Source: Prorocentrum cordatum (lineage: Eukaryota). Taken from it: a stretch of DNA of 64,000 nucleotides. Of this stretch, positions 1 to 39,746 are shown piece after piece (within the stretch, counting starts at the first letter, position 1; each line of letters starts with the position of its first letter). Below the pieces are notes generated by a model that was not told the DNA's origin, made no database searches, and saw only the letters and a program-made list of their open reading frames with translations. Both the position numbers and the translations under genes were made by a program. The stretch lies in the NCBI GenBank assembly GCA_963575745.1, contig CAUYUJ010000205.1, positions 1 through 64,000 of the forward strand, written 5' to 3'.

Positions 1-2491
1 GCTATTCGAGTCGTTTGACAGACGCTCTCGGTTTTTTGTACTTAACTCGAGCTGTAGGGCAGCTGCAGGGATCATTATCACAGACATAGATGGGGAATCA
101 TCAGTCGCGTTCGTCTATTGAACCGAGAGCTCTGAACTCGGCCTGCTGCCCGAGCTAGGTTCGCGAAACTATTCGTATTGTCCGAATCATCTTGAGAAGT
201 GCTCTCGGTCTTCTGCACTCAACTCGTGCTGGGGAGGGCTACAGTGCTGCGGGTCACAGATATCGATTTGCACAGATCAGGCGCGTCTGTTGGTCGATTC
301 CAGAGCTCGGAACTCGGTCTGCTGCTCGAACTGGGTCCGCGAAACTATTCTATTATTCGAGTCGATACTGTCGGTTTTCTGGACTTACCTCGGGCTGTAG
401 GGGGGTGGGAATCACATGAGTGGATTCACAGACATCAGACGCGCCCGCCTGTCGCATTCAGAGGTCTGAACTCGGTTCGATACTCGAACTGGGTTGCGAA
501 ACTGTTTGTTTTTTGGTTAGAGTCATCTTGAAAGGTCTGAAATCGCTTGGGCTGAAAAACTAGTCCTTCTTTGGAGTTTTTTTCCACAGTATATTCTGTC
601 AGGAAGCTCTACGAGTCCCCCGGCGGTAAGAAAGGTTGACGGTTTACCGCCGGCGCCCAGTGGTGGTTCCCCCTAGTCTATTAATCGAAATAATGCAGCT
701 AGGGCCCTGAGAATTGTATCATCGAAAGCGTCATGATTCACTGCATGGAATGAAAATTCAAATTTGCAAAACGAATTTCAAAATCTCTCGTCATCTTCGA
801 AAAACCGACCCCAGGTCACCACATTGTCCGCCCGGGCCGGGTTGGCGAACTAGCTCCAACCCGCGCCGGAATTCCTCTAGCTCATCGATGCCGAAGAGCT
901 CTACGAGGTATTTTCAATCGACCAAAAGTCAGCAAAAGGTTCGTCGAGATTTTTCTTGCCAATTGGTAGCGTCCATTGGTTGCGTCCAAAACCCGGAGAG
1001 CAAGAAGGACAAACGCCCGAAAGCCTTCCTGGCGAGCTCTCGGAAGCTCTCCTGAAGCGCTCCCCGGGCTCTGGGGGGCTTTCCTGGGGCGCTTCTGAAG
1101 CGCTGCCAGGAACGCTTCCACGCGTGCCTGCACGCGTGCAGGCACGCGTAGACGCTTGCCGGAAGCTCTCCCGGACACGCTGCCGGGCCGGGCGAGGCGC
1201 TGCGGGGATCGTGGACCGGCGGAGATGGGCTGCTGGCGGGCACCACCACCGTCCGGCTTCTTCTATAATACCCTCTAGCTCTCAGAGAGCTCTCCGGGAA
1301 AAACCCGGAGAGCAAAGAGAACACAAACCGGAAAACCTTCCTCGCAAGCCCTTGGAAGCTCGCGTTAAGCTCTTCTGGGGCTCTGGGGGGCTCCCCCGCA
1401 ACGCTTCCGAAGCGCTGCCACAAACGCTTCCACGCGTGCCTGCACGCTTGCGGGCACGCGTGGAAGCTTGCCGGAAGCTCTCCCGGACCAGTTGCCGGCT
1501 CGAACGACCTGCTGCGAGAATTCTGGACCGGCGGAGATGGGCTGCTGGCGGGCACCACCACCGTCCGGCTTCTAATCTTAAACCTTTTAGCTCTCAGCGA
1601 GCTCTCCGGGAATTGGTGGTAGCGTCCAAAACCCCGAGAGCAAAGAGAACACACACCGGAAGTCCTTCCTGGCAGGCTACGGAAGCCCGCGTGAAGCTCT
1701 TCTGGGGCTCTGGGGGGCTTCCCGGCAGCGCTTCCGAAGCGCTGCCAGGAACGCTTCCACGCGTGCCTGCACGCGTGCAGGCACGCCTTGACGCTCGCCG
1801 GAAGCTCTCCCGGACCCGCTGCCGGGTCAGGCGAGCTGCTGCGAGAATTCTGGACCGGCGGAGATGGTCTGCTGGCGGGCACCACCACCGTCCGGCTTCT
1901 AATCCTAAACCCTTTAGCTCTCAGCGAGCTCTCCGGGAACTAGCTCTCCAGCTCCCCGGAATTACTCTTTAGCTTCCAGCAAGACCTTGTTAAGGGAAGC
2001 TCTACAAGTTACTAGCTCCACCCCGCGCCGGAATTCCTCTAGCTCATCGATGCCGAAGAGCTCTACGAGGTACTCTTAAGCTTCCAGCAATAACTTGCGG
2101 AGGGAAGCTGTTCAAGTTATTTTTCGGCTTCCAGCAACTAGTTTAGGGAAACTCTACGAGTCATCTGCTCTCCAGCGCGCCGGAATTACTCTGAAGCTCC
2201 CAGCAACTAGCTTAGGGAAGCTCTACGAGTCACTTGGTAGCGTCCAAAACCCGGAGAGCAAAGACACCCTCGGGGACGGGATTCTTTCCTGGAGTGCTCT
2301 GGGGGGCCACCCTGCAGCGCTGCTGAAGCGCTGCTAGGATCGCTTCCATGCATGCCTGCACGCGTTGGGGCACGCTTGGAAGCTTACCGGCAGCCCTCCC
2401 GGACCCGTTGCCGGCTCACCGGAGGCGCTGCAGGGAACGTGGAGCGCCGTGGAAGAGCTCCCGGCGGGCACCACCACCGTCCGGCTTCTAA

Positions 2492-3788
2492 TGACTCGTA
2501 GAGCTTCCCTAAGCTAGTTGCTGGAAGCTTAAGAGTAATTCCGGCGCGCTGGAGAGCTAGTTGGCTCGAAAAAAAAGAACTGAACTTTTCACAACTTTTG
2601 GTCGGTTGAAAATTTTGTTCTCGAAATTCAACAATTCGTTTGTGCTCTAGTATTTTTTCCCGTGGGATTCGATCTTATTCCCGCTCGTCATCTTGATCTC
2701 AGCTCGATCGGGTATCTTTTATTGCCAAAAAGCACACTGGCGGGATCGGCCGTTTCGAGTCATCTTGATACGCGTTGTCGGTATTTTGTACTTAACTCGA
2801 GCTGTAGGACAGCTACAGAGCTGGTAAGCACAGCTAATCGATGTAGAATGATTAGGTGCGTTCGCCTGTGAATCCAGAGCTCTGAACTCGGTTTGCTAGC
2901 CGAGCTAGGTCCGCAAACCTATTCGTATTATTCAAGTCATCTTGATTCGCACTGTCGGTATTCTGAACTTAACTCGAGGTATAGGACAGCTACAGAGCTG
3001 GTAAGCACGCCTCATCGACTCAGAATCATCAGGCGCGTTCGGCTGTTCCAACCAGAGGTCTGAACTCGGTCTGCTAGCCGAGCCAGGTTCGCAAACCTAT
3101 TCGTATTATTCGAATCATCTTGATAGGCGCTCTCGATTTCCTGTACTTAACTCGAGCTATAGGACAGCTACAGGGCTGATAGTTACAGAAACCGATTCAG
3201 AATCATCAGTCGCGTTTGTCTGTCGAATCCAGAGCTCTGAACTCGGTCTGCTGCGCGATCTAGAATCACGAAACTGTTCGTATTCTTCCAGTCATCTTGA
3301 AAGCTACTGTCGGCGTTCTGCACGTAACTCGGGCTGTAGGGAGGCTTTTTTTTTTTCTTTTGTTTTTTTTCTGTTTCTGCAGGGCGGGTAATTCACAAAG
3401 GAAATAGAGAAGGAAAGGGAAGGAGGAATTTCGAATTTCGGAGACATTTTCGGACGCAGTCCTCCGTCTGCCGCGGGTCTGTGTTCGCATATCAGAGTGG
3501 TTTAGTATATGCCTTGTTAACCCTCCTGCCTTCCTGCTGGACTCCGGGTCATGGATCACTCGAGGTTTTTTTGGGCCTGGCTTTGAAAAAAAAACTATTC
3601 GTATTCTGCAATTTTTTGTTTGTTTTTTCGATACACCCCCTTCCATCAGCTTTACTTTATATTTCTTTTATACTTTTTTTTTTTTATTATATCATTTCTT
3701 TTTCAGATTTTTTTTTTTATATGTTGTCAGGAAGCTCTACGAGTCCCCCGGCGGTAACAAAGGTTGACGGTTTACCGCCGGCGCCCAG
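2492..3788 (+). mobile_element. Family A element inserted in a family C copy
   Basis: TGACTCGTAGAGCTTCC head, GGAAGCTCTACGAGT + hairpin + CCCAG tail. Flanks CTTCTAA|TCTTAAACCC rejoin to the C consensus seen near 1570. Confidence 0.85.
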
Positions 3789-4274
3789 TCTTAAACCCTT
3801 TAGCTCTCAGCGAGCTCCCCGGGGAAAACCCGGAGAGCATAGGGCAAACACACCAGAAAGCTTTCCGGGCGAGTCGTGCAACGCTCTCGCAAAGCTCTAT
3901 ACTGGCCCTCTGGAAAGCTCCCCTGCAGCGCTGCGGAAGCACTGCCAGAAACGCTTCCATGCGTGCCGGCACGCGTGCGGGCTCGCGTGGAAGCTTGCCG
4001 GAAGCTCCCCCCGACCAGCTGCCGACTCGAACGAGCCGCTGCGGGGATTCTGGACCGGCGAAGATGGGCTGCTGGCGGGCACCCCACGACCAGCTTCTTA
4101 TCTTAAGCCCTTTAGCTCTCAGCGAGCTCTCCGGGAATGAAATCTGCCCCTAGATGGGTCGGCCCTTGGCGTCAATGTATGCAATTAATGTATAGCCACT
4201 TCTATACACACACGTCTAGGTATACGGCACGCGTTTATTTATGTTTGTAGGTACGTATGCGTGCGTGTGCATGT

Positions 4275-5332
4275 CTATGGATTGGCACATACGGCTGACT
4301 TACTGGCATATATGCCGTCGCAAATTATGAACAGTTGGATGGGGATTGGCGGGGGCCGAACTGGCGAACTTGCCACCGAACCTCTTAACCCAAACCCGGG
4401 ACAACCATGCAACGCGACAGCCACGCCGATACTGTAACTTGGTAGCGTCCAAAACCCGGAGAGCAAAGAGAACACACACCGGAAAACCTTCCTGGCAAGC
4501 CCACGGAAGCACGCGTGAAGCTCTTCTGGGGCTCTGGGGGGCTCCCCGGCAGCGCTTCCGAAGCGCTGCCAGGAACGCTTCCACGCGTGCCTGCACGCGT
4601 GCAGGCACGCCTAGACGCTCGCCGGAAGCTCTCCCGGACACGCTGCCGGGTCAGGCGAGCTGCTGCGAGAATTCTGGACCGGCGGAGATGGGCTGCTGGC
4701 GGGCACCACCACCGTCCCGCTTCTAATCTTAAACCCTTTAGCTCTCAGCGAGCTCTCCGGGAATTCCACTGGCCCATTGATTCGGCCGCAAAGCCTAAAC
4801 CACCAAACAACACAATGGAACGCCACAAACAGCTGGCATCACACACAAGAGCGTCTGGGGATGGATTCGATGTTCGGTGTGGGGCGCGAACGCTGGGGAT
4901 GAGGCGTTAGGGCGTCGGCATTGGCCCGCCCCGCGCAAGCCTTCGACGTCCTGCGAATGGCCGCTGAGCTCATCTCGCAGCATGAGTGCGAAGCCGTACA
5001 ACTGGTAAGGTACCATGCCGCCAGACGTGATGACGGCATCGATGTGATTGCCATAGACCTCCTTCACCTTCACGGTAACGCCGTCAAAAACGTCATTGAG
5101 GCAGTGGCATATTGGACACGGGGTTGAGAGTTGCTGACAAACGGCGACCCGCTTAGCATCTTCAACGCCAGCGGGCCGTTGAGGAAGTACAAGCAAGAAA
5201 ACAGGAAACTTCTCGCATGGCCTCGCGAAGCGGAACCACCATAAACAAGCTGCCACCAATGCTCCATGAACAATGCGCTCGATTGCAGCACAAAGATATC
5301 GAACAGGAACGCCGCGCGCACCTGCCCAAATA
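4275..5332 (-). pseudogene. C-terminal part of a decayed hAT-like DDE transposase (split by a family C copy at 4438-4763)
   Basis: ORF 4795..5259 with ELSGHSQDVEG, resembling the hAT S-x-x-x-E catalytic motif. Its frame continues into 38169 when 5333-38168 is removed. Confidence 0.5.
4438..4763 (-). mobile_element. Family C element (326 bp)
   Basis: Minus strand TTCCCGGAGAGC...GCTCTCCGGGTTTTGGACGCTACCAAG in unique sequence; inserted before TT, no TSD. Confidence 0.85.
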
Positions 5333-7200
5333 TTCCCGGAGAGCTCTCTGAGAGCTAGAGGGTTTTAGATTAGAAGCTGGGCGGTGGTGGTGCCCGCCAG
5401 CAGCCCATCTTCGCCAGTCCACGATCCTCGCAGCAACTTGCCCGACCCGGCAGCGTGTCAGGGAAAGCTTCCGGCAAGCTTCCACGCGTGCCTCCACGCG
5501 TGCAGGCACGCGTGGAAGCGTTCCTGGTAGCGTTTCAAAGACGCTGCAGGGATGCCCCCCGAGCCCCAGAAGAGCTTCACGAGAGCTTCTGTGGGCTTGC
5601 CAGGAAGGCTTCTCCCGGATAGCCTCTTGGGCTACGTAGGGTTGTTAGACTAGAAGCCGGCGGGCGCGCGTACGCCGCCGCACCCCTCCGCCCACCGCTC
5701 TACGTGCCCTTCCGTGACTCGTACCTCGTAGAGCTCTTCGGCAAGATGAGCTAAGAGGAATTCGGGCGCAGGTGGAGCTAGTTGGCCGACCCGAGCTTAA
5801 GAGACAATGAGACGACTTGGGGTCGGTTATTCTATCTTTGCGCAAAAAGTTAGTTTTATTTTTCCCGGAGAGCTCTCTGAGAGCTAGAGGGTTTTAGATT
5901 AGAAGCCGGACGGTGGTGGTGCCCGCCAGCAGCCCATCTCCGCCGCTCCACGATCCCCGCAGCGCCTCGCCTGACCCGGCAGAGGGTCCGGGAGCGCTTC
6001 CGGCAAGCCTCTGCGCGTGCCTGCACGCGTGCAGGCACGCGTGGAAGCGATCCTGGCAGCGCTTCAGAAGCGCCCCAGGGGAGCCCCCGGAGCTCCGGAA
6101 GCGCTTCAGGGGAGCTTCCGAAAGCTGGCCAGGAAGGCTGTCGGGTGTGTGCCCTCCTTGCTCTCCGGGTTTTGGACGCATCCAAGTTCTATCTTTGTTC
6201 CCGGAGAGCTCGCTGAGAGCTAAAGGGTTTAAGATTAGAAGGCAGACGGTGGTGGTCCCGCCAGGAGCTCTTCCACGGCGGTCCACGTTCCCCGCAGAAA
6301 CTCCGGCGGCCCGGTAACGTGTCCGGGAGAGCTGCCGGCAAGCTTCCACGCGTGCCTGCACGCGTGCAGGCACGCATGGAAGCGTTCCTGGCAGCGCTTC
6401 AGCAGCCCTCCAGGGGAGCTTCCCAGGGCTCTCCAGGAAAGATTTCCCGTCCTGGAGAGTGTCTTCGCTCTTCGGGTTTTTCCCGGGGAGCTCTCTGAGA
6501 GCTAAAGGGTTTTAGATTACAAGCCGGACGGTGGTGGTGCCCGCCAGCAGCCCATCTTCGCCGGCCCAGAATCCCCGCAGCCGTTCGTTCGACCAGGCAG
6601 CGTGTCCGGGAGAGCTGCCGGCAAGCATCCGCGCAGGCCTTCACGCGTGCAGGCACGCGTGGAAGCGTTCCTGGCAGCGTTTCAGAGACGCTGCAGGGGG
6701 GCGCCCCGAGCTCCAGAAGAGCTTCACGAGAGTTTCTGTGGGCTTGCCAGGACGGCTGTTCAGTGCGTGTTCTCTTTGCTCTCCGGGTTTTTCCCGGAGA
6801 GCTCGCTGAGAGCTAAAGGGTTTAAAATTAGAAGCCGGACGGTGGTGGTGCCCGCCAGGAACTTTTCCGCGGCGCTCCACGGTCGCCGCAGACACTCCGG
6901 CGACCCGGCAGCGGGTCCGGGAGAGCTCCCCGCCAGCTTCCACACGTGTACCTCGTAGAGCTCTTCGGCATCGATGAGACCTCTCTGATTTTTTTTTTTT
7001 GCCTTTGTTGTGGGTCCTTTTCCATATTTATTTTTATTATTTTTATTTTTTTTTTTTTCGTTTTAGCCTTTTTTTTATTTTGTTTTTGTCTTTTTTCTTT
7101 TTTTAGCCTTGTTTAATAGTTTTTTTTTTAGTTGACTTTCTTTTCTTTTTTTTGTTTTTTATTTAGAGGAATAACTTGTAGAGCTTCCCGTAGCAAGTTA

Positions 7201-7525
7201 TTCCCGGAAAGCTCGCTGAGAGCTAAAGAGTTTAAGATAAGAAACCGGACGGTGGCGGTGCCCGCCAGCAGCCCATCTCCGCTGCTCCACGATCCACGCA
7301 GCGCCTCGCCTGATCCGGCAGCTGGTCCGGGGGAGCTTCCGGCAAGCTTCCAGGCGTGCCTGCACGCGTGCAGGCACGCGTGGAAGCGATCCTGGCAGCG
7401 CTTCGGAAGCGCTGCCGGGGAACCCCCCAGAGCTCCAGAAGAGCTTCACGCGAGCTTCCGTGGGATTGCCAGGAAGGTTTTCCAGTGTGTGTCTCTTTGC
7501 TCTCCGGGTTTTGGACGCTACCAAG
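7201..7525 (+). mobile_element. Family C element (325 bp) inserted in a family A head
   Basis: Flanks GCAAGTTA|TTGCTGGAAGC rejoin to the A head consensus. Confidence 0.85.
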
Positions 7526-7840
7526 TTGCTGGAAGCTTAAGAGCAATAACTCGTAGAGCTTCCCTGAGCAAGTTATTGCTGGAAGCGAAGAGTAATTCCC
7601 GGAGAGCTCGCTGAGAGCTAAAGGGTTTAAGATTAGAAGCCGGACGGTGGTGGTGCCCGCCAGGAGCTCTCCACGGCGGTCCACGTTCCCCGCAGCGACT
7701 CGCCTGAACCGGCAACGTGTCCGGGAGAGCTTCCGGCAAGCTTCCACGCGTGCCTGCACGCGTGCAGGCACGCATGGAAGCGTTTCGGCCAGCGCTTCAG
7801 AAGCTCTGCTGGGGAGCTTCCCAGAGCTCTCCAGCAAAGA

Positions 7841-8242
7841 CTTGTAAGCGTCCAAAACCCGGATAGCGAAGCCAAGCGCGGAACGCCGCACGTGGACTCT
7901 GCCAGGCCGCCTGAAACAATGCGCGGGACGCTGGAAAACTTGCAGGAGACGCTTGCAGGGGCGCTGTTTACGATGCGTGGGGCCCTTCAAAGCGCGGAAG
8001 GAAGATCTGCCTAGGAGCCTGGAAAAACTGCCGAAGCTCTTCCGAAGCTCTGCCGAAGCGCTTCGCGCACCCTGGAGCCACGCGTATTGGGAAACGCTAG
8101 GAAGCCACGCTCCCGGACCCGCTGCAACCTCCGGCGAGTTGCTGCGAGAATCGTGGACCGGCGGAGGTGGGCGTGTCTCCCTCACCACCCACCGCCGGCT
8201 TCTTCTCTGAAACCCTCAGCTCTCCAAGGAGCTATCCGGGAA
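7841..8242 (-). mobile_element. Family D element (402 bp)
   Basis: Minus strand TTCCCGGATAGC...GCTATCCGGGTTTTGGACGCTTACAAG. Flanks CAAAGA|TTTCCCG match the C-type sequence near 6435. Confidence 0.8.
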
Positions 8243-8609
8243 TTTCCCGTTCCCAAAGGGTTTCTTCGCTCTCCGGGTTTTTCCCGGGTAGCTCCTTGGC
8301 GAGCTGAGGGTTTCAGATAAGAAGCCGGCGGTGGGTGGTGAGGAGCACACGCCCATCTCCGCCGGTCCACGATTCTCGCAGCAGGTTGCCGGAACCGGCA
8401 GCGGGTCCGGGAGCGTGGCTTCCTAGCGTTTCCCAATACGCGTGGCTCCAGGGTGCGCGAAGCGCTTCGGCAGAGCTTCGGAAGAGCTTCGGCAGTTCCC
8501 GGGTAGCTCCTTGGAGAGCTGAGGGTTTCAGATAAGAAGCCGGAGGTGGGTGGTGAGGGGGGCACGCCCACGCTCGCCGGTCCACGCTCGCCGGAGAAAC
8601 TCGCCGGAG

Positions 8610-9718
8610 TAACTCGTAGAGCTTCCCTTAGCAAGTTATTGCTGGAAGCTTAAGAGTAATTCCGGGGAGCTGGAGAGCTAGTTGGCAAGAAAAATCTCGA
8701 CGGACCTTTTGATGACTTTTGGTCGGTTGAAAATTTTGTTCTCAAAATTTGACCATTCGTTAGAGCTCTAGTATTTTCTCCCATGATATTCGATCTTATT
8801 CCCGCTCGCCATCTTGATCTCAGCTCGATCGGGTAACTTTGAAGGCCAAAAAGCAGGCAGGCGGGAACGGCCGTTTCGAGTCATCTTGATACGCGCTGTC
8901 GGTGTTCTCAAGATAACTCGAGCTTCAGGACAACTACAGAGCTGGTTAGCACAGCTAATGCATTCAGAATGATCAGGCGCGTTCGCCTGTTGAATCCAGA
9001 GGTCTGAACTCGGTCTGCTAGCCGAGCTAGGGTCGCAAACCTATTCGTATTATTCGAGTCATTGTAGCAGACGCTCTCGGTTTTTCGTACTTAACTCGAT
9101 CTGTAGGGCGGCCACAGAGCTGATAATCACAGAAATCGATTGATAATTACCAGGCGCGTTCGTCTGTTGAATCAACAGATCTGAACTCGGCCTGCTCCCC
9201 GAGCTAGGTTCGCGAACCTATTTGTATTCTTCGAGTGGTCTTGAGAAGTGCTCTCGGTTTTCTGTACTTTAATCGTGCTGGGGGAGGGTTAGAGTGCTGC
9301 TGGTCACAGAAATCGATTCCGAGACATCAGGCGCGTCCGTTCGTCGAATCGAGAGCTCGGAACCCGGTCTGCTGCTCCGAAACTATTGTATTATTCGAGT
9401 CATTCTGAGAGGTACTCTCGCTTTTCTTCACTTAACTCAGGCTGTATGGGGGGCTGCAGAGCTGGTAATTACAGGAATCGATCTGCAGACATCAGACGCG
9501 TCCGCCTGTCGCATTCAAAGGTCTGAACTCGGTTTCATACTCGAGCTCGATTGGAAAACTGTTGGTTTGTTTTGTTAGAGTCATTTTGAGAGGTCTATAT
9601 TCGCTTGGGCTGAAAAGCTAGCCGATCTCTGAAATTCTTTTCCGCATTATATATTGTCAGGAAGCTCTACGAGTCCCCCGGCGGTAAGAAAGGTTGACGG
9701 TTTACCGCCGGCGCCCAG
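8610..9718 (+). mobile_element. Family A element inserted in a family D copy
   Basis: Complete head and tail; flanks CTCGCCGGAG|TTCGCAGCGGG rejoin to D-like sequence. Confidence 0.85.
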
Positions 9719-29831: not shown

Positions 29832-31243
29832 TTGGCAAGAAAAATCTCGACGGACCTTTTGGTGACTTTTGGTCGGTTGAGAAATTTGTTCTCTTCAACA
29901 ATTTGTTTGAGCTCTAGTATTATTTCCCGTGATATTCGATCTTATTCTCGCTCGCCATGTCGATCTCAGTTCGATCGGGTACCTTTTACTTCGTCCCGGC
30001 GGGATCGGCCGTTTCGAGTCATCTTGATACGCGCTGTCAGTAGTTTGTACCTAACTCGAGCTGTAGGGCAGCTACAGAGCTGGTCAGCACACCTATCGAA
30101 TGCAGAATCATCAGGCGCATTCGCCTGTTGAATCGAGAGGTATAAACTCGGTCTGCTAGCCGAGCTAGGTCCGCAAATCTATTTGTATTATTCGAGTTAT
30201 CTTGACAGACGCTCTCGGTTTTCGGTACTTAACTCGAGCTGTAGGGCAGCTACAGAGACCATAGTCACAGAAATCGATTGGGAGTCATCAGGCGCGTTCG
30301 TCTGTTAATTCGAGAGATCTGAACTCGGCCTCTTGCCCGAGCTAGGTTCGGAAAACCTACCCGTATTCCTCTCGTGCTGGGAGTGGGATACAGTGCTGCT
30401 GGTCAGATAAATCGGTTCGGACACATCAGGCGCGTCCGTCTGTCGAACCCAAAACTCGGAACTCGGCCCGCTGCTCGAACTAGCTCCGCGAAAATATTGT
30501 ATTATTCGAGTCATCCTGAGAGATGCTGTCGGGTTTCTTCATTTAACTCGGGCTGTAGGGGGCTGCAGGGCTCAAAGACAGCAGACGCGTCCGCCTGTCG
30601 CATTCAGAGGTCTGAATTCGGATTGATATTCGAACTGTGTTGCGAAATGTTTTTTTGAAGTCATCTTCGAAATCGCTTGGGCTGAAAAACTAGTCGTTCT
30701 GGAGTTTTCCCCACATTATATACTGTCAGGAAGCTCTACGAGTCCCCCGGCGGTAAGAAAGGTTGACGGTTTACCGCCGGCGCCCAGTTCCCGGAGAGCT
30801 CGCTGAGAGCTAGAGGGTTTAAGATTAGAAGCCGGTTCCGGGGCGCTAGAGAGCTAGTTGGCAAGGAAAGTCTCGACGGACCTTTTGCTGACTTTGGTCG
30901 GTTGAAAATTTTTGTTCTCGAAATTCAACAATTCGTTTAAGCTCTAGTATTTTTTCCCGTGATATTCGATCTCATTCCCGCTCGCGATCTCGATCTCAGT
31001 TCGATCGGGTATTTTTCACTTGCAAAAAGCACACGAGCGGGATCGACCGTTTCGAGTCATCTTGTTACGCGCTGTTGGTTTTCTCACGATAACTCGAGCT
31101 TCAGGACAGTTATAGAGCTGATAAGCACGTCTAATCGATGTAGAATGATTCGGCGCGTTCGCCTGTTGAACCCAGAGGTCTGAACTCGGTCTGCTAGTCG
31201 AGCTAGGTGCGCAAACTTATTTGTATTATTTGAGTCATCATCA

Positions 31244-32590
31244 CTGGGCGCCGGCGGTAAACCGTCAACCTTTGTTACCGCCGGGGGACTCGTAGAGCTT
31301 CCTGACAGTATATAGTGTGGGAAAAAATCCAGAGAACGACTAGTTTTCAGCCCAAGCGATTTCAGACCTCTCAAGATGACTCTAACAAAAAAAAAAAAAC
31401 AGTTTCGCAACCCAGTTCGAGTATCAGACCGAGTTCAGACCTCTAATGCGACAGGCGGACGCGTCTGATGTCTGCGAATCGACGCATGTGATTACCAGCC
31501 CTGCAGCCCCTCTACAGACCGAGTTAAGTGCAGAAAACCAACAGCATCTCTCAGGATGACTCGAATAATACAATAGTTTCGCGGACCTGTTTCGAGCAGC
31601 AGACCAAGTTCTGAGCTCTCGAATCGACCAACGAACGCGCTGATGTGTGCAAATAGGCCGAGTTCAGAGCTCTCGATACAACAGACAAACGCGCCCGATA
31701 ATTTTCAATCGATTTCTGTGACTATAGGCTCTGTAGCTGCCCTACAGCTCGAGTAAAGTAGAGAAAACCGAGAGCGTCTGTCAAGATGCCTCGGATAATA
31801 CGAATAGGTTTGCGGACCTGGCTCGGCTAGCAGACCAATTTCAGACCTCTCGATTCAAGAGGCGAACGCGCCTGATAATTCTGAATGCGATGAATGTGCT
31901 TACCAGCTCTCTAGCTGCCCTGCAGCTCGAATTTAGAAGAAAATACCCACAACGCGTATGAAGTTCACTCCAATAATACGAATAGGTTTGCGGACCTAGC
32001 TCGGCTAGCAGACTGAGTTCAGACCTATGGATTCAACAGGCGAACGCGCCTGATGATTCTGAGTGCGATAGGTGTGCTTACCAGCACAGTAGCTGCCCTA
32101 CAGCTCGAGTTAAGTAGAAAATACCGACCACGCGTATCAAGTTGACTCGAATAATACGAATAGGTTTGCGGACCTAGCTCGGCTAACAGACCGAGTTCAG
32201 ACCTATGACTGGAACAGGCGAACGCGCCTGATGATTCTGAGTGCGATAGCTGTGCTTACCAGCTCTGTAGTTCTCCTACATATCGATTTGAGTACAACAT
32301 ACCGACAACGCGTATCAAGATGACTCGAAACGGCCGATCCCGCCAGTGTGCTTTTTGGCAGTAAAAGGTACCCGATCGAGCTGAGATCAAGATGGCGAGC
32401 GTGAATAAGATCGAATATCACGGGAAATAATACCAGAGCTCGAACGAATGGTCAAGTTTCGAGAACAAAATTTTCAACCGACCAAAAGTTGTGAAAAGTT
32501 CAGTTCTTTTTTTCGAGCCAACTAGCTCTCCAGCGCGCCGGAATTACTCTTAAGCTTCCAGCAACTAGCTTGGGGAAGCTCTACGAGTCA
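31244..32590 (-). mobile_element. Family A element in reverse orientation within another A copy's 178-bp repeats
   Basis: Reverse-complement tail CTGGGCGCCGGCGGTAAACC at 31244 and head GAAGCTCTACGAGTCA ending at 32590. Confidence 0.85.
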
Positions 32591-35500
32591 CAGACGCTCT
32601 CAGTTTTCTGTACTTCACTCGAGCTAAAGAGCAGCTGCAGAGCTGATACGTACAGAAACTGATTGAGAATCATCAGTGGCCGTTGTCTGTTGAATCTACA
32701 GCTCTGAACTCAGTCTGCTGCCGATCTAGAATTACGAAACTATTCGTATTGTCCGAGTCGCTTGCGAGATGCTATCGGTTCTCTGCACTTCAATCGGGCT
32801 GCAGGGGGGCTGCATGGCTGGTAATCACTGGAATCGATGCGGAGACATCAGGTGCGTTCGTCTGCGAAATCCAAAGCTCTGAACTCGGTCTGTTGCGCAA
32901 ACTAGGTCCGCGAAACTATTCGTATTGTAACTCCTAGAGCTTCCCTTAGCAAGTTATTGCTGGAAGCTTAAGAGTAATTCCGGGGCGCTGGAGAGCTAGT
33001 TGGCAAGGGAAATCCCGACGGACCTTTTGCTGACTTTTAGTCGGTTGAAAATTTTGTTTACGATAACTCGAGCTTGAGGACAGCTAAAGAGCTGATAAGC
33101 ACAGCTAATCGATTCGAAATGATCAGGCGCGTTCGCCTGTTGAAGCTAAAGGTCTGAATTCGGTCTGCTAGCCGAGCTAGGTACGAAAACTTATTCGTGT
33201 TATTCGAGTCATTGACAGACGCTCTCGGTTTTCTGTACTACAGGACAGCTAAAGAGCTGATACGAACAGAATCTGATTCAGAATGATCAGTGGTCGTTGT
33301 CTGTTGAATCCGGAGCTCTGATCTCGGTCTGCTGCCCGATCTAGAATCGCGAAACCATTCGTATTGTTCAAGTCGCTTGCGAGATGCTGTCGGTTCTCTG
33401 CACTTATCTCAGGCTGTAGCTGGTAATCACTGGAATCGATTCGAAGACATCAGGCGCGCACGCCTGCGGAATAGCTCCGAACTCGGTCTGTTGCCAAACT
33501 AATTCCGCGAAGCTATTCGTATTGTTCGAGTCATCCTGAGAGGTGTTGTCGGTTTCCTGCACTTAACTCGGCTGTAGGGGGGGCTGCAGGGCTGGTAATC
33601 ACAGGGATCGATTTAGAGACATCAGACGCGTCCGTCTGTCGCATGCAGAGTCTGAACTCGGTCTGATACTCGAACTAGGTTTGCCAAACTATTCGTATTG
33701 TCCGAGTCATCTTGAGAGGTGCTGTCGATTTACGCGGCTGTAGGAGAGCTACAGAACCCGTGCAGAAGAGAATCTAGAAGCATCGGGGGCGTTCGGCTGT
33801 TGCATCCGAGAGGTCTCAAATTGCCTGGGCTGAAAAACTATGTTTTCTGTATAATTTCTTCCGACATTATATGTTGTCAGGAAGCTCTACGAGTCTCCCG
33901 GCGGTAAGAAAGGTTGACGGTTTACCGCCGGCGCCCAGTTCCGGCGCGGGGTGGAGCTAGTTGGCCCAGCCGGCCGAGGCGGACAATGTGGCAACTTTTG
34001 GGTGGTTTTGCAATTTTTTGAAAGATATTTGACAATTCATTTTGAGAAAGCAGATTTTTACTCCGAGCATTGAGATATAAACTTTGTTCCCTGAGCAGCT
34101 CAGCCCTCTAGAGTCATTTTTAGTACCAGTTCACTTGGAGGAACCGACTTCATGCTGACTCCGAAAAATCTCGACTTGAAGTTTTTGTAGAAAAGCTCCC
34201 AGGAGCTCCCTCTTTGATGCTGAGCTTTCTCGCGGATGCAAGGAGCTCTACGAGGTTCCCGGCGGTGACCAGATTGACGGTTCACCGCCGGCGCCAGTTG
34301 GCCCAGCCGGCCGAGGCGGACAATGTGACAACTTTTAGGTAGTTTTGCAAATATTTGAAAGATATTTGACAATTCATTTTGAGAAAGCAGATTTTTCGCA
34401 CCTGTAGACAACTTTGAGGGCCTCTGCGTCTTAATATGAGCGCTGAAGGCTCACTCTTACTATCAAAACACTTGGCGCAACCAACTTTCTATCGACATGA
34501 AAAAATTGAAGATTCAATTTTTCGAGAAATGCCTCGAGCAGCTCTCTTCTTCGACTCTTAGCACTCTCACGCGTGAAAAGAGCTCTACGAGGTTCCCGGC
34601 GGAGACCAGGTTGACGGTTTACCGCCGGTGCCAGTCTGCATGCGTGCAGGCACGCATGGAAGCGTTTCTGGCAGCGCTTCGGCAGCGCTGCAGGGAGCCC
34701 CCCTCAGCTCTCCAGGAAAGGTCTCTTCGCTCTCCGGGTTTTGGCCCCTACCAAGTGGACGCTACCAATGGACGCTACCAAGCGTAAAATTGACTCGTAG
34801 CGCTTCCCTAAGCTAGTTCCTGAAGCTTAAGAGTAATTCCAGCGCGCTGGAGAGCAAGTTGGCAAGACAAATCTCGAAGGAACTTTTGGTGACCTTTGGT
34901 CGGTTGAAAATTTTGTTCTCGAAATTGGAACATTCGTTAGAGCTCTAGTATTTTTTCGCGTGGTATTCATCTTGATCTCAGCTCGATCGGGTGAATATTA
35001 GTATCGAAAAGCACTGTGGTGGGATCGGTCGTTTCGATCTTAATACGGGCTGACGGTTTTCTGAACATAGCTCGAGCTTTAGGACAGCTAAAGAGCTGGT
35101 CAGCACAGCTAATTGATGCAGAATGAATAGGCGCGTTCGTCTGTTGAATCCAGAGGTCTAAACTCGGTCTGTTAGGCGAGCTAAGTCTGCAAACCTATTC
35201 GTATTATCCGAGTGATCTCGACTGAAACTCTGGGTTTTCTGTACTTAACTCGAGCTGTAGGACAACTACAGAGCTGATATTTACATAAACCAGGTGAGAA
35301 TCATCAGTTACGTTTGTCTGTCGAATCCAGAGCTCTGCAGTCGGTCTGTTGCCCGATCTAGAATCGCGAAATCATTCATATTGGTAGAGTCATCTTAAGA
35401 AGTGCCCTCGGTTTTCTTCACAGAACTCGGGTTGAGGGGGCTACAGTGCTCGTTGTCAGAGGAATCGATTTGAAGAGATCAGGCGCGTCCGTCATCCAGA

Positions 35501-37771
35501 GCTCAGAAATCGGTCTGCCCAAACTAGGTTCGCGAAACTATTGTATTGTTCGAGTCATCCTGAGAGGTGCTGTCGGTTTTCTGCACTTAACTCGGGGGCT
35601 GTAGGGGGGCTGCAGGGATGGTGATGACAGGAGTCGATTCGCAGACATGAGACGCGTCCGCCTGTCGCATTCAGAGGTCAAAACGTATTCACTATGAGTC
35701 GGAATCTTGGTAGGTGCTGTCGGTTTTCTCAATTTAAGTCGAGCAAGGAAGCTCTAGGAGTCTCCCGGCGGTAACCAAGTTTGACGGTTTACCGCCGACG
35801 CCCAGTTGAAAGTCCGTTTTACAAACAGGTATTTTTCCCACCTGTAGCGGGTTATGCCGCGTCTGCCAGTTAAATTCCCAGGTCTGGTAATACTACTATC
35901 AAAAGACTTGAGGGAACCGTCGGCCGTTTCGAGTCATCTTGATACGCGTTGACGGTTTTCTGTACTTAACTCGAGATTTAGGACAGCTATAGAGCTGATA
36001 CTTACAGAAACCGATTCAGAATAATCAGGCGCGTTTGTCTGTCCCATCGAGAGGTGTGAACTCGGTCTGCTGCTCGAGCTAGGCCCGCAAAACTATTTGT
36101 AATATACGATCATTTTGACGAGTGTTGTCGGTTTCCCTTAACTGAAGATTTAGAAGAGCTACAGAGCTGGCACGCATATAAACCGAGCCAGTATCACCCG
36201 ACGCGATTTTTCTCGCATCGAGAGGTCCGAACTGGGTCAGGCAGCTAGGTCCACGAAGCGAAGATGCAACATTTAAAAAACATATTTTCGGATATTTCTT
36301 CTTCACGCTTGAGAAACTTCTTTCGTGTGCTTTGAGCAGCACCGCGCCAGAATAGAGCTCTACGAGGCTCCGGCGGTTACTGGTTGACGGTTTACGCCGG
36401 ATCCCAGTAGAGCTTCCCTTAGCTAGTTGCTGGAAGCTTAAGAGTAATTCCGGCGCGCTAGAGAGCTAGTTGGCAAGAAAAATCTCGACGTAACTTTTGC
36501 TGACTTTGGGTCGGTTGAAAATTTTGTTCTCGAAATTTGAACATTCGGTAGAGCTCTTTTTTTTTCTGTGATATTCGATCTTATTCGCGCTCTCCATCTT
36601 GATCTCAGCTCGATCGGGTACCTTTTACTGCAAAAAAGCACTGTGGCGGGATTGGCCGTTTCGAGTCATCTTGACACGCGGTGACGGTTTTCTGTGGACA
36701 TAACTTGAACTTTAGGACAGCTACAGAGCTGGTAAGCACAGCTAATCGATTCAGAATGATCAGGCGCGTTCGCCCGTTGAATCCAGAGGTCTGAACTCGG
36801 TCTGCTAGCCGAGCTAGGTCTGCAAACCTATTCGTATTATTCGAGTCATCTTGATAGACGCTCTCGGTTTTCTGTACTTAACTCGAGCTATAGGACAGCT
36901 ACAGAGCTGATACTTACAGAAACCGATTGAGAATCATCAGTATCATTTGTCTGTTGAATCCAGAGCTCTGAACTCGGTCTGCTGCCCGATCTAGAATCGC
37001 GAAACTATTCGTATTGTTGGAGTCATCTTGAGAGATGCTGTCGGTTCTCTGCACTTAACTCGGGCTGTAGGGGGGCTGCATGGCTGGCTATCACTGAAAT
37101 CGATTCGAGAACATGAGGCGCGTCCGTCTGTCGAATCGAGAGCTCCGAACTCTGTCTGCTGCCCGAACTAGGGCCGCGAAACTATTCGTATTGTTGGAGT
37201 CGTCTTGAGAAGTGCTCTCGGTTTTCTGCACTCGACTTGGGCTGGGGGGGGCTACAGTAAAAGTAAGGAAGCTCTACGAGTCTCCCGGCGGTAACCAAGG
37301 TTGACGGTTAACCGCCGGCGCGAGTGGTCCCTCGGGTTCTGCAGCGTGTCCCGGGGCGTCCGTTCCAATGCGTTCCCGTAGAACGTGCTCCAGAGGCCTC
37401 GCGAATGTGCCCCAGAGGCCTCGCAGAGCTTCCCGGGCAGCGAGCGCCCAAGCGTTCAGGCACGCGTGGAGGCGTCGCTGTCTTCCCTTCAGGAGCGCAG
37501 GCAAGCTTTCCAGCGCCACCACGCACGTTTGCTAGCAACTTGTGCAGCGCTTTAGAAGCTGACACCTCTGCGCACGTCGAAGACGTGCACCGGGCCTTGC
37601 GCGCGCAGCACTCTAAGGGAGCGTAGAGGCACGCGCGGTGCCAGGGGCATGACCCAGGTCTGGCGCGACGAGACCCGTGCGCGCGCGTCTCTGGCTTGGC
37701 TATCCGGGTTTTGGACAACAACAGGTTTAGTGCGTGTCCTCTTTGCTCTCCGGGTTTTCGACGCTACCAAG

Positions 37772-38168
37772 TACCTCGTAGAGCTCTTCGGCATCGATGA
37801 GCTAGAGGAATTCCGGCGCGGGGTGGAGCTAGTTGGCCCAGCCGGCCGAGGCGGACAATGTGGCAACTTTTGGGTAGTTTTGCGAAAATTTGAAAGATAT
37901 TTGACAATCTATTTTAAGAAAGCAGATCTTTGCGCGTCGCATTGGCAGATAAACTCCTCTCTGACAGCAGCTCAGCTTTCTCGATGCATTTTTGCATGAG
38001 TTGACTTCCAGGAACTGAGCGAATATGAACATCGAAAAAATCGAATTTGAAGATTTTCGAAAAATCTTTTTTTTTCACTCTGTGTCGATTCTCTGCACCC
38101 TTACCAGTGAGAGGAGCTCTACGAGGTTCCCGGCGGTGACCAGGTTGACGGTTCACTGCCGGCGCCAG
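37772..38168 (+). mobile_element. Uninterrupted family B element (397 bp)
   Basis: TACCTCGTAGAGCTC...GAGCTCTACGAGGTTCCCGGCGGTGA-loop-TCACTGCCGGCGCCAG. Confidence 0.85.
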
Positions 38169-38985
38169 TTATCTGAAGACCCGTCAGCGATCTGCTTGTC
38201 AAACTTCTGAGCAAACACGACTGCATGACTGTTGACAAGTTTAGAGAGAAAGGTGCGGCCGAAATATTTCTTGCCATCGGCAGAGTTGCGCCGTTTGTTG
38301 GTATGCTTGGTGCGTTTCGCAGCCTAGCGTAAAAAGTGCAGAAGCGGCTGCATGATAAGTGATATGCAAGAAGAAGACAAATGAGTTCTTGCCACATGCA
38401 TTTAATTTTTTGGATCGATGTTCCTCCTGATATTGGTTCGCCTCATCTGCGCCAAGATCCTTGAGTTCTCGAGGGCGCTTAGCCCTGGCGTGTTGGAAGA
38501 GCTTGTCAAAGGCAGCTGGAAGATGATCCAAAGCTTGGACAATCGAGCTTACAGGCTCGTGAACACTGCCCCACCTGATTCGAATACAACGGCTGGGCGG
38601 GCTAGGTATAGTCGCCTCGACGTCGGCGCCATCGCCCTGAAAAATATCCTTCAAATTGAGACGCGCTCCAGGCCCACGGCAGAGGTGCGAAATCAACAAC
38701 AAGCCCGTCACGAACTTCACGGCACCAGGAGTCAAACACTTCAAGCAACTTCTCGAATATGAGCTGGCACTGGCGTAGAAAACACCAACACACTGCGATC
38801 ATCATGGTCTTGAAGGGGCGAACGCGGCACACCGATGTTCGCACGGAAAATACATTATCGCCGCCCTTATCGACATTCATCATGTACAATTGCATGGGGC
38901 GCCCAGGTCCAGAAAGCAAATTCAGTGCCCCAGCCGATGCCAACTTGTTGCATGCGTCGTCGACTCAGGTTCGTTCTCTGCTAAT
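38169..38985 (-). pseudogene. Central part of a decayed hAT-like DDE transposase
   Basis: Ordered motifs VDKGGDN, WCFLRQCQL (CxxH with CAC>CGC), PSRCIRIRWGS (like hAT TRWNS); frameshifts and one TAG. Confidence 0.55.
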
Positions 38986-39746
38986 TCTTTGGACATAATA
39001 TATGGCAAGGAAGCTCTACGAGTCTCCCGGCGGTAAGAAAGGTTGACGGTTTACCGCCGGCGCCCAGTGCTTTGGGGAAGTCCCTAGGGCTTTTCAGAAA
39101 AGCTTCCCAGATTTCCAGATTACCGGCGACAGGAGCTGAGAGGAATTCCTCGTAAAGCTCTTCGGCAAGATGAGCCAAGAGGAATTTGGGCGCAGGGTGG
39201 AGCTAGTTGGCAGACCCGACCAAAATGGACAATGTGGGAACTTGGGGTCGGTTTTTGTATCTCTGTGCAAAATTTGAAAATTAGTTTTGAGAACCGGTAT
39301 TTTTCTCACGTGCAGTGGGTTATGCCGCGTCTGCCAGTCCAATTCTCAGGTCCGTAGCTTCAATATTACTATCAAACACTTGAGGGAACCGACTTTGGAA
39401 AAACATTAAAGATCGTAATTTTTCGAGTTTCTCAGATCACCTTGAGAAAGCTTCTCTCATGTGTTCCAAGCAGCGCTGCGCGATCAAAGAGCTCTACGAG
39501 GCTGCCAGCGGTAACCTTGTTGATGGTTTACCGCCGGCTCCCAGTATCTCGTAGAGCTCTTCGGCCAGATGAGAGGAATTCGGGCGCAGGGTGAAGCTAG
39601 AAACTCGTAGAGCTTCCCTTAGCTAGTTGCTGGGAGCTTAAGAGTAATTCCGGCGCGATGGAGAGCTGGCCCTGGAGCCACAGTAATGTCGTCAAACCCT
39701 GCACGCACACGTCCTACACAGTGCGCGTGTGTCCGCGTGGTGAGCA

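What the first reader, a model, noticed from the sequence alone, without database searches (positions are those of the whole stretch)
1..39668. Four-family system of self-nesting, TSD-less elements with Helitron/Helentron-like ends
Seen: at ten or more junctions, removing a T...CCAG or T...CAAG unit exactly restores the interrupted sequence (AA|TC, AG|TT, TA|TT, AA|TT, CC|TT, CA|TC). Insertion is before a T with no duplication beyond one ambiguous T. Each family has an asymmetric subterminal inverted repeat, a 5' fold-back and a 3' stem-loop (strong in A/B, weak in C/D). Known: Helitrons insert at A|T without a TSD and end in hairpin+CTRR; Helentron-associated elements such as DINE-1 have subTIRs, a 3' stem-loop and internal tandem repeats. 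Inference: these are non-autonomous clients of an HUH rolling-circle transposase not encoded in this window, with non-canonical ends.
Basis: partly seen in the sequence, partly recalled or inferred. Interest (0 to 1): 0.8.

Follow-up and report, generated by a model that had tools for sequence, protein, structure and literature searches.

The report
Nested Helitron2-like non-coding transposons
The first 39.7 kb of the window is a deep pile of short non-coding rolling-circle-type transposons inserted into one another without target duplications: new families of a known kind (Helitron2/Helentron-like), whose enzyme is not in the window.

Summary
I curated 51 5' ends and 43 3' ends of four related families (my labels A, D, B, C, plus subfamilies). 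At 25 of 35 insertion sites examined, removing exactly T...AG gives the best match to an uninterrupted paralogue, and every other offset is worse. Nesting is about 13 deep. Each family has a 10-16 nt asymmetric inverted repeat. A and D also have a conserved 10-bp hairpin between the right repeat and the 3' end. A carries 177-178 bp tandem repeats. Integration is between a purine (mostly) and a T, and 39 of 43 inserts lie in the same orientation as their host element. Hot spots resemble an element's own 3' junction (...AG|T). The same terminal architecture occurs in otherwise unrelated elements on public metagenome contigs. This matches Helitron-like elements of group 2 and their non-autonomous derivatives, apart from the usual T|T target. 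No Rep/helicase gene is in the window, so the enzyme is inferred. The pile sits inside a multi-copy orphan gene that is a target, not a same-ended partner. Verdict: a real feature and new members of a known kind, of moderate interest.

The parts
1..39667 (.). Whole nest of A/B/C/D elements. It lies inside pieces of a multi-copy orphan gene and is nested up to about 13 deep.
   Evidence: Hand parse checked
28713..29831 (+). Family A, uninterrupted copy (1119 bp). 5' end TAACTCGTAGAGCTTCC; 177-bp tandem repeats; 3' end GGAAGCTCTACGAGTC, then the hairpin, then CGCCCAG. Inserted at CTAG|TTGG of another A.
   Evidence: 30 of 30 at offset 0
37772..38168 (+). Family D, uninterrupted copy (397 bp). 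14-nt repeat ACCTCGTAGAGCTC; hairpin CCGGCGGTGA/TCACTGCCGG (one mismatch in this copy; TCACCGCCGG in D 34297); ends CCAG. It sits directly after the 3' end of a B.
7201..7525 (+). Family B, uninterrupted copy (325 bp). 5' end TTCCCGGA(G/A)AGC; 3' end GCTCTCCGGGTTT plus the 14-nt tail TGGACGCTACCAAG. Inserted at GTTA|TTGC of an A.
   Evidence: 29 of 30
9849..10250 (+). Family C, uninterrupted copy (402 bp). 10-nt repeat CCCGGATAGC; ends CTTACAAG.
1..660 (+). A, 3' part, cut by the window start.
661..910 (-). D, 5' part, host of the A at 1-660.
963..1612 (-). B holding an inner B (976-1300) at its GGGTTT|TGGAC site. Both end CCAA, without the last G.
1613..1939 (-). B, side by side with the previous one, at the CTAG|TTGG site of an A (911-962 and 1940-2011, minus strand).
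   Evidence: 30 of 30
2012..2232 (-). Stack of 5' pieces: D 2012-2072, A 2073-2119, A 2120-2163, A 2164-2232. Each is the host of the one before; the rest lies beyond the window start.
   Evidence: read
2233..3825 (-). B holding A 2492-3788 (+). It lies in the tail site of B core 3826-4137 (-).
   Evidence: 40 of 40; 30 of 30
4438..4763 (-). B in the orphan gene, site GGAA|TTAC.
5333..37771 (+). B spanning 32.4 kb, outermost element of the main nest.
5611..37724 (+). Diverged C-like element (C2). Starts TCTCCCGGATAGCC and ends CAACAG. The next host base is G.
   Evidence: 27 of 30 at offset 0
5715..37324 (+). A with only 7 nt before its insert; its 3' end is mutated (GCGAG).
5722..36407 (+). 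D2 subfamily element inserted at TGACTCG|TAGAGC of that A. A second D2 lies at 39146-39544.
6198..34782 (+). Three B elements nested at the tail site. Cores start at 6198, 6480 and 6791. Their three tails lie in a row at 34742-34782.
   Evidence: 24, 25, 26 of 30
6949..34297 (+). D in B position 158|159, followed by a 5'-truncated D (34298-34634) that starts at TTGG.
7172..33938 (+). A in D at GGAA|TTCC. It holds B 7201-7525, A 7547-30787, B fragment 30788-30835, A 31244-32590 (-) and A 32928-33938.
7596..28690 (+). Cluster at the GTAA|TTCC site of A 7547-30787: B core 7596-8280 (holding C 7841-8242, minus strand), C 8281-17858, one extra T, B 17860-26833, D 26834-28690.
   Evidence: best at offset +/-1
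8496..17675 (+). C holding A 8610-9718. At one further site it holds C 9849-10250, the composite A 10251-16147 (with A 10277-11667, 12088-13195, 13243-14857) and D 16148-17517 (with A 16209-17200, which has a doubled 5' end).
18107..26788 (+). A in B at CCCG|TTCC, holding A 18568-25824.
   Evidence: 28 of 30
26856..27886 (+). A in D at GTCA|TCGA.
   Evidence: 28 of 30
34791..35805 (+). A in D2 at AAAT|TTGA.
   Evidence: 24 of 30
38965..39067 (+). 103-nt 5'-truncated A 3' end inside the orphan gene.
39545..39667 (+). D fragment (39545-39600) with an A fragment (39601-39667) at its CTAG site. Both are cut off.
19949..25797 (+). Not part of the families: a 5.8-kb retroelement inside the loop of the 3' hairpin of A 18568-25824. 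Its left border is approximate.
   Evidence: (RVT_1 E=2e-5 at 23384-23836)
28241..28659 (+). Not part of the families: a second insert in the same hairpin loop, here of D 26834-28690.
38169..38964 (-). Host: orphan multi-copy gene. It continues at 5332-4764 and 4437-4138 on the left, and at 39068-39145 and from 39668 on the right.

Best explanation
Positions 1-39667 are a graveyard of at least 50 copies and fragments of four related families of short non-coding transposons. They are inserted into one another and, at the bottom, into a copy of an unrelated multi-copy gene.

Anatomy, shown by the sequence:
- Each element starts with T and ends with AG (CCAG in A and D, CAAG in B and C).
- Each carries a 10-16 nt inverted repeat. 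The left arm starts at nt 2-3. The right arm ends 17 nt (B, C) or 40-44 nt (A, D) before the 3' end.
- In A and D a 10-bp hairpin fills the space between the right arm and the end.
- A carries 177-178 bp tandem repeats.
- Integration duplicates nothing. It is strand-specific and falls between a purine (mostly) and a T, most often where the host resembles an element's own 3' junction.

This is the anatomy of Helitron-like elements of group 2 (Helitron2/Helentron) and their non-autonomous derivatives (HINE, DINE-1).

Mechanism, inferred by analogy with published Helitron work:
1. A Rep-helicase enzyme encoded elsewhere in the genome nicks the top strand just before the 5' T.
2. It unwinds the strand up to the 3' signal and cuts after AG.
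3. It joins the ends into a single-stranded circle.
4. In the circle the two repeat arms pair and present the G|T joint at the foot of the stem.
5. The same chemistry opens a target R|T and joins the strand in.
6. Resident 3' ends and look-alike internal sites are preferred targets, so the elements pile up in one orientation.
For: No duplication. 25 of 35 sites restore exactly at offset 0 only. Two excisions restore a host reading frame.

Inverted repeats:
- A: 14-16 nt perfect in 10 of 16 copies.
- D: 14 nt in 4 of 6.
- B: 10 nt in 8 of 12.
- C: 10 nt in 2 of 4.
- Control: only 17 of 3000 random pairs of pieces from the same DNA reach 10 nt.

The arms differ between families yet stay complementary:
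- A: ACTCGTAGAGCTTCC
- D: ACCTCGTAGAGCTC
- B: CCCGGAGAGC
- C: CCCGGATAGC
- Metagenome element L011: GACTCGTAGAGCAC

Hairpin. 93.1% of 290 cells are paired in 29 distinct 3' ends, against 22-57% when the partner is slid.

Joined ends. The 3' and 5' ends joined in a script fold into one long stem enclosing the joint. z = -6.1, -7.6, -5.0, -4.9 and -2.9 for two A copies, D, B and C, against 300 mononucleotide shuffles each.

Target:
- The next base is T at 22 of 25 verified sites.
- The previous base is a purine at 18 of the 24 sites tabulated, and T at the 25th.
- No G at position -2.

Orientation. 39 of 43 insert-host pairs lie the same way round.

Tandem repeats. 177-178 bp, 2.6-5.1 copies.

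Relatives. The about 57-nt 3' end is shared by otherwise unrelated elements on 9 of 12 metagenome contigs.

Other loci. Contigs of a public run break at the same ends and the same hot spots.

Literature, passages read. [quoted passage not shown] HINEs carry central tandem repeats. Chimeras with two 5' ends and self-insertion are described.
Against: - No Rep or helicase gene was seen: 0 of 134 reading frames of 120 aa or more. No whole genome is held. The enzyme class is therefore inferred from anatomy alone.
- The usual HLE2 target T|T is not met: the previous base is T at 11 of 51 5' ends.
- Covariation in the hairpin is thin: one pair, in three sequences, and 23 of 500 shuffles reach the score.
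- Folding of the 3' end alone is not exceptional: z = -1.3 for A and D. For B and C it is worse than shuffles, at +0.8 and +1.0.
- Irregular junctions: 6 of 43 3' ends lack the last G; one site keeps an extra T; three verified sites are followed by C or G; two inserts are flanked by host duplications of about 31 nt; one B core has no tail.
- Copies differ by 5.5-15% from the window consensus, apart from one composite row at 50%, so nothing shows present activity.
Confidence: 0.75

Rival explanations
1. The elements are moved by another single-strand (HUH) transposase that is not a Helitron-type Rep-helicase. Candidates are a Replitron-like Y1 Rep using a host helicase, or an undescribed group. 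The anatomy is then convergent.
For: - No enzyme was seen.
- The target is not T|T or A|T.
- Replitron-1 inserts in one orientation after RG (passages read). Here 21 of 51 5' ends follow G and 18 follow A.
- B and C lack a significant 3' hairpin.
Against: - Replitrons are defined by short direct terminal repeats, and the paper never uses the words 'inverted repeat' (0 occurrences). These elements have inverted repeats and no direct terminal repeats.
- The inverted-repeat-plus-3'-hairpin layout is the published HLE2 layout.
Confidence: 0.12
2. The elements are moved by the multi-copy orphan protein whose gene pieces lie in the window (38964-38241, 5331-4798 minus strand; 40322-40885 plus strand), or by some other non-HUH enzyme.
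For: - Two partial copies of this gene lie next to and under the nest.
- The gene is multi-copy in a public run.
- It has no known family.
- An A-type 3' end abuts it at 38965-39067.
Against: - The gene is a target. It is split by the 32.8-kb nest, by B 4438-4763 and by the 103-nt A piece, and removing them restores colinearity and frame.
- No element end is shared with it.
- Its motifs look like those of hAT-type DDE enzymes, which duplicate their target. This rests on my recall plus a weak Atlas lead of 0.78.
Confidence: 0.05
3. The elements duplicate one base (the T) on insertion through a 1-nt staggered cut by an unknown enzyme. They would then not carry a T of their own.
For: A T stands on both sides of nearly every element: 50 of 51 5' ends start with T and 40 of 43 3' ends are followed by T. 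The empty sites have only one T. Sequence alone cannot tell the two readings apart.
Against: - The same ambiguity exists for classical Helitrons (A|T target, 5' TC) and for FoHeli.
- At three verified sites the next base is C or G although the element still starts with T.
- Asymmetric ends and the orientation bias fit single-strand chemistry.
Confidence: 0.05
4. Not mobile elements at all: segmental duplications, satellite DNA or an assembly artefact.
For: The region is extremely repetitive. Some junctions are irregular.
Against: - There are 25 exact paralogous empty sites.
- The same ends lie in other contexts on independent metagenome contigs.
- Contigs of another run show the same ends in other contexts.
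Confidence: 0.02

Closest known systems
Non-autonomous Helitron-like elements of group 2: HINEs and DINE-1 (Helentron / Helitron2 derivatives)
   Same: - Subterminal inverted repeats of 10-16 nt.
[quoted passage not shown]
- A short fold-back next to the 5' repeat.
- Central tandem repeats (A).
- No target duplication.
- A T at both borders, with occasional variation in the number of Ts.
- High copy number.
- Self-insertion and copies with two 5' ends.
(Passages of PMC4067079, PMC11417382 and PMC5148889 read.)
   Different: - The host base before the element is mostly A or G, not T.
- The ends are CCAG/CAAG.
- B and C have only a 17-nt tail with no significant hairpin.
- No autonomous partner was seen.
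Classical Helitrons (HLE1)
   Same: - No target duplication.
- 5' T.
- Hairpin close to the 3' end.
- Ends in AG before a host T.
- A|T is the site at 18 of 51 5' ends.
   Different: - The 5' end is TA or TT, not TC.
- The 3' end is CCAG/CAAG, not CTRR.
- Inverted repeats are present.
- G|T sites are as common as A|T.
FoHeli1-5 of Fusarium oxysporum (Helitron2 variant)
   Same: - Asymmetric terminal inverted repeats with the right arm 20-50 nt inside the 3' end.
- A family-specific target that is not T|T.
- Some groups lack a 3' hairpin.
- Chimeras with two 5' ends.

   Different: - Other terminal sequences (TCAG...ATTTT; TGCCT...CTCCTGT) and targets (TNAT|A).
- Those elements encode RepHel.
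Replitrons
   Same: Eukaryotic HUH transposons. Orientation-specific insertion after RG in Replitron-1. Mostly no target duplication. A right-end palindrome.
   Different: They are defined by short direct terminal repeats. Here the repeats are inverted.
IS91 / ISCR of bacteria
   Same: Rolling-circle transposons with no target duplication, insertion next to a short specific sequence, and tandem or one-ended products. (Mentioned in passages; the rest is recalled.)
   Different: Prokaryotic, with other ends and a fixed tetranucleotide target.

Membership tests
HLE2 (Helitron2 / Helentron) and their non-autonomous derivatives | Autonomous copies with the same two ends encode a Rep (two tyrosines) fused to a Pif1-like helicase | not testable with these tools
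   - No whole genome is held.
- 0 of 134 window reading frames of 120 aa or more hit a Rep or helicase family.
- Metagenome contigs with the 3' end are 1-3.3 kb.
- Viral and prokaryote collections gave 0 matches.
HLE2 (Helitron2 / Helentron) and their non-autonomous derivatives | Short (about 12-16 nt) asymmetric terminal inverted repeats, the right arm lying inside the 3' end | tested here: met
   A 14-16 nt (10 of 16 copies), D 14 nt (4 of 6), B and C 10 nt (8 of 12; 2 of 4). The left arm starts at nt 2-3. The right arm ends 17 or 40-44 nt before the end. Null: 17 of 3000 random pairs reach 10 nt.
HLE2 (Helitron2 / Helentron) and their non-autonomous derivatives | [quoted passage not shown] | tested here: inconclusive
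   - A and D: a 10-bp stem kept in 93.1% of cells of 29 distinct sequences, but fold z is only -1.3.
- B and C: z +0.8 and +1.0. A 3-5 bp hairpin appears only when the ends are joined.
HLE2 (Helitron2 / Helentron) and their non-autonomous derivatives | No target-site duplication | tested here: met
   25 of 35 sites are best at offset 0 only. None is better with 1-5 nt removed, except one site that keeps one extra T.
HLE2 (Helitron2 / Helentron) and their non-autonomous derivatives | Insertion between T and T | tested here: not met
   The next base is T at 40 of 43 3' ends, but the previous base is T at only 11 of 51 5' ends (A 18, G 21, C 1). Published HLE2 families also depart from T|T (TTTT|T/C; TNAT|A).
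HINE / DINE-1 type | Central tandem repeats | tested here: met
   Period 176-178 (one row 167, one 169), 1.9-5.1 copies, in 13 arrays inside A copies. One to two units are also in D2.
Classical Helitron (HLE1) | 5' TC, 3' CTRR, hairpin about 11 nt from the 3' end, A|T target | tested here: not met
   - The 5' end is TA/TG (A), TA (D) or TT (B, C).
- The 3' end is CCAG or CAAG.
- Inverted repeats are present.
- A|T at 18 of 51 5' ends.
Replitron | Short direct terminal repeats; Y1 Rep without helicase | tested here: not met
   No direct repeat between the two ends of any family. The enzyme is not testable.

The most novel reading that the evidence does not exclude
These families belong to an undescribed branch of rolling-circle transposons of an unidentified eukaryote lineage, neither HLE1 nor HLE2 by enzyme. 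This branch chooses its target by likeness to its own 3' junction (WR|T, best ...AG|T). It is in turn parasitised by retroelements that insert specifically into the loop of its 3' hairpin.
Probability: 0.12. Interest if true: 0.7.

Novelty: new member of a known kind. Interest (0 to 1): 0.4.

Why it matters
The window is an unusually clean natural record of how group-2 Helitron-like elements choose targets. There are 25 exact empty sites within 40 kb, a strong same-strand bias, and repeated use of sites that mimic the element's own 3' junction. These data support the idea that end recognition and target recognition share one mechanism.

The families appear very abundant in the source genome, so they matter for its annotation and assembly. 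The conserved 57-nt 3' end gives a simple probe to fish out the autonomous partner. If that partner is not a Rep-helicase, the finding would be far more important.

Tried and rejected
- Whole genome: none held.
- Earlier notes of this scan: none for this genome or sequence.
- Scans for the 3' end motif: 0 matches in viral contigs and 0 in prokaryote genomes.
- Runs X3 and X4: nothing laid.
- Organism: not identified. The runs are coded, and the Atlas search with the reverse transcriptase gave only a generic eukaryote RVT_1 result.
- Rfam and tRNA scans of the window: nothing.
- Paper search for the terminal motifs as text: 70 papers. The 15 listed are unrelated uses by their titles and abstract starts, such as primers. 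I did not open the others.
- Host gene pieces: no Pfam family. The word-based homologue search among longer proteins found none. PDB sequence searches found nothing credible.
- Nesting depth against divergence from the consensus: no relation, Spearman -0.15 (A) and +0.26 (B).
- The insert at 28241-28659 has no nucleotide similarity to the 5.8-kb retroelement.
- The automatic bracket parser found only 20 elements and mis-paired one, so I parsed by hand.
- My first coordinates for C2 (5612-37716) were wrong and were corrected.
- The offset test was not a clean positive control for the T-rich insert with the 10-bp duplication, because another A starts 14 nt after it. The duplication is read directly from the sequence.

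Full report
WHAT THE WINDOW IS

It is eukaryote-like DNA of 44-67% G+C with no tRNA or Rfam match. No whole genome is held, and earlier notes of this scan hold nothing on it. I could not name the organism. Positions 1-39667 are almost wholly repeats. The rest is low-complexity, gene-poor DNA with one reverse-transcriptase frame at 57191-58501.

- A, about 1.0-1.6 kb, for example 28713-29831. It starts TAACTCGTAGAGCTTCC. It carries 177-178 bp tandem repeats in 2.6-5.1 copies. It ends GGAAGCTCTACGAGTC, then CCGGCGGTAA-loop-TTACCGCCGG, then CGCCCAG.
- D, about 0.4 kb, for example 37772-38168. It has the same plan with TACCTCGTAGAGCTC and ends CCAG.
- B, 325 bp, for example 7201-7525. It starts TTCCCGGAGAGC and ends GCTCTCCGGGTTT plus the 14-nt tail TGGACGCTACCAAG.
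- C, 402 bp, for example 9849-10250. It is B's relative, with CCCGGATAGC and CTTACAAG.
- Subfamilies B2, C2 and D2 also occur.

CHECKING THE OBSERVATION

I curated 51 5' ends and 43 3' ends.
- 50 of 51 elements start with T.
- 37 of 43 end in AG. Six lack the last G.
- A T follows 40 of 43 3' ends.

I parsed the nest by hand from the BLAST tables. I then tested every insert. Fifteen nt of cleaned flank from each side were joined and compared, ungapped, with all other cleaned copies and with the metagenome loci. This was repeated with 1-5 nt removed from either flank. The 35 physical sites fall out as follows:
- 25 sites of the four families, holding 31 elements or fragments, score 24-30 of 30 at offset 0 and lower at every other offset. 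The median of the other offsets is 19-22.
- One T-rich insert of another kind restores as well.
- One site is a tie.
- One site with four inserts side by side keeps one extra T.
- Six sites have no paralogue.
- One T-rich insert (18187-18553) has a plain 10-bp duplication. This shows that duplications are visible here when they exist.

Two checks do not use paralogues.
- Removing 5333-38168 joins a 230-aa minus-strand frame across the joint. That frame is colinear with residues 614-691 of a 1356-aa relative.
- Removing 38965-39067 keeps the same gene in frame.

Contigs of a public run that shares 46% of the sampled words of the neighbouring unique DNA show joints at the very same ends. Examples are 26788 or 29831 joined to 32978, 34297 to 37811, 37811 to 39602, and 37830 back to 37770. 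Fifteen of 615 joints were listed.

Nesting reaches 13 enclosing elements, although a few levels rest on diverged or composite copies.

TERMINAL STRUCTURE

The inverted repeat is perfect over these lengths:
- A: 14-16 nt in 10 of 16 copies.
- D: 14 nt in 4 of 6.
- B: 10 nt in 8 of 12.
- C: 10 nt in 2 of 4.

The left arm starts at nt 2-3. The right arm ends 40-44 nt (A, D) or 17 nt (B, C) from the end. Of 3000 random pairs of pieces from the same DNA, 17 reach 10 nt.

The arms differ between families but stay complementary. This also holds in a 1.04-kb element on metagenome locus L011 (GACTCGTAGAGCAC with GTGCTCTACGAGTC). It holds again in two A subfamilies whose repeat is lengthened to 16 nt by matching changes at both ends.

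The A/D hairpin is a 10-bp stem.
- In 29 distinct 3' ends, 93.1% of 290 cells pair, against 22-57% when the partner is slid.
- Covariation is thin: one pair, in three D sequences, and 23 of 500 shuffles reach the score.
- The 3' end folded alone is not exceptional, at z = -1.3.
- For B and C no 3' hairpin stands out, at z = +0.8 and +1.0.
- A 5' fold-back is present in A (z = -1.9) and D (z = -1.3).

When the 3' and 5' ends are joined, as in a circle or a head-to-tail junction, all families fold into one long stem made of the two repeat arms. The G|T joint lies in a small loop at its foot. z = -6.1 and -7.6 (A), -5.0 (D), -4.9 (B) and -2.9 (C), against 300 mononucleotide shuffles each.

TARGET CHOICE

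At the verified sites:
- The base after the cut is T at 22 of 25.
- The base before it is a purine at 18 of the 24 sites tabulated, and T at the 25th.
- Position -2 is never G.

A few sites are used again and again:
- CTAG|TTGG in A and D.
- GTAA|TTCC in A.
- GGAA|TTCC in D.
- GGGTTT|TGGAC in B and C.
- The position directly after another element's 3' end (eight cases).

The GGGTTT|TGGAC site explains B copies that seem to lack their tail. Three cores at 6198, 6480 and 6791 are matched by three tails in a row at 34742-34782.

The same hot spots appear in the other run's joints and on metagenome loci L004 and L006. Inserts lie in the orientation of their host element in 39 of 43 pairs. That count includes eight pairs at the left edge of the window which I took by eye from the sequence.

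RELATIVES ELSEWHERE

An exact scan of public metagenome contigs for 23 nt of the hairpin gave 12 loci.
- L008 is family A at 93% identity. L006 carries C and A. L004 carries D.
- L001, L003, L009, L011 and L012 share only the about 57-nt 3' end with otherwise unrelated sequence.
- L007 looks like a chance match.
- All are followed by T.

So the 3' end is the conserved, presumably recognised, part.

In run X1 the summed contig depth over the repeat bins is about 9,000-145,000, against 7-8 over unique DNA at 40028-41000. The tool warns that this is not a copy number. I take it only as a sign of great abundance.

WHAT IT IS

From passages read in PMC11417382, PMC4067079 and PMC5148889:
[quoted passage not shown] - There is no target duplication.
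- The non-autonomous forms carry tandem repeats.
- Chimeras with two 5' ends and self-insertion are described.

All of this is met here. The one named feature not met is the T|T target, but published HLE2 families already vary on that point.

Replitrons, the other eukaryotic HUH group, are defined by direct terminal repeats, which these elements lack.

No Rep or helicase domain occurs in 134 reading frames of 120 aa or more. The enzyme is therefore inferred.

A POSSIBLE REFUTATION, RESOLVED

An A-type 3' end at 39067 abuts protein-coding DNA. That gene belongs to an orphan family.
- It has 43 relatives among 1.84 billion representatives, up to 1356 aa.
- It has no Pfam family.
- It has no PDB sequence match.
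- Its motifs remind me of hAT-type enzymes. This is recall only, plus a weak Atlas lead.

The A end there is only a 103-nt truncated insert, and removing it keeps the gene in frame. The gene is also split by the main nest and by B 4438-4763. It is a target, not a same-ended partner.

IRREGULARITIES I CANNOT FULLY EXPLAIN

- Six 3' ends lack the last G.
- Host duplications of about 31 nt flank two inserts, 11700-12066 and 5862-6186.
- One B core (7596-8280) has no tail.
- Two A copies (16209 and 32928) share a 3' end with another 5' end.
- Copies are 5.5-15% from the window consensus, apart from one composite copy at 50%, so present activity is not shown.

VERDICT

These are new members of a known kind. 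Confidence that they are HLE2-type clients is 0.75.

Noticed in passing
window 19949-25797, 28241-28659; L005:1200-1380: Three separate inserts sit in the loop of the A/D 3' hairpin. Their right junctions fall within 1 nt of each other (|GGTTGACGG or |GTTGACGG).
- One is a 5.8-kb retroelement with frameshifts (weak RVT_1, E=2e-5, at 23384-23836).
- The two window inserts end in (ACCGCAR)n-like tails.
- The 28241 insert is flanked by ACCAGGTT on both sides.
- The two window inserts share no nucleotide similarity.
This looks like retroelements specific for this hairpin loop.
   Followed up: partly
window 38964-38171 and 5331-4798 (minus strand); 39068-39145; 40322-40885 (plus strand): Two partial copies of an orphan gene family.
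- 43 relatives, up to 1356 aa.
- No Pfam family and no PDB sequence match.
- A cysteine/histidine-rich C-terminal stretch that looks PHD-like to me (recall only).
- Conserved motifs LDKGPxNQG, WCFxHQxxL, RWGS, WxFRF..DFP and DVEG.
- Summed depth 667 against 7-8 for unique DNA in run X1.
It is possibly a diverged hAT-like transposase, on recall plus a weak Atlas lead of 0.78.
   Followed up: partly
window 6979-7162 and 18187-18553: Two T-rich low-complexity inserts lie inside D and A copies. The second is flanked by the 10-bp duplication GTTGGCTCGA. The first restores its host without a duplication (29 of 30).
   Followed up: partly
window 11668-12087 and 5828-6197: Host duplications of about 31 nt flank a 5'-truncated C (11700-12066) and the B at 5862-6186. 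This is unlike all the other inserts and may reflect another integration or repair route.
   Followed up: no
window 57191-58501 (minus strand): A reverse-transcriptase frame (RVT_1, E=6.6e-24) of a second retroelement, outside the nest.
   Followed up: no
window 46300-50600 and 62400-63000: Long (GAG)n / (GGA)n and (GTT)n / (GTC)n triplet tracts. Open frames there are low-complexity and have no Pfam family beyond weak compositional hits.
   Followed up: no
window 16147, 17517, 34768, 963, 976, 1613: Six 3' ends lack the terminal G (...CCCA|T, ...CCAA|T). Four of them are B copies that may form a subfamily.
   Followed up: partly
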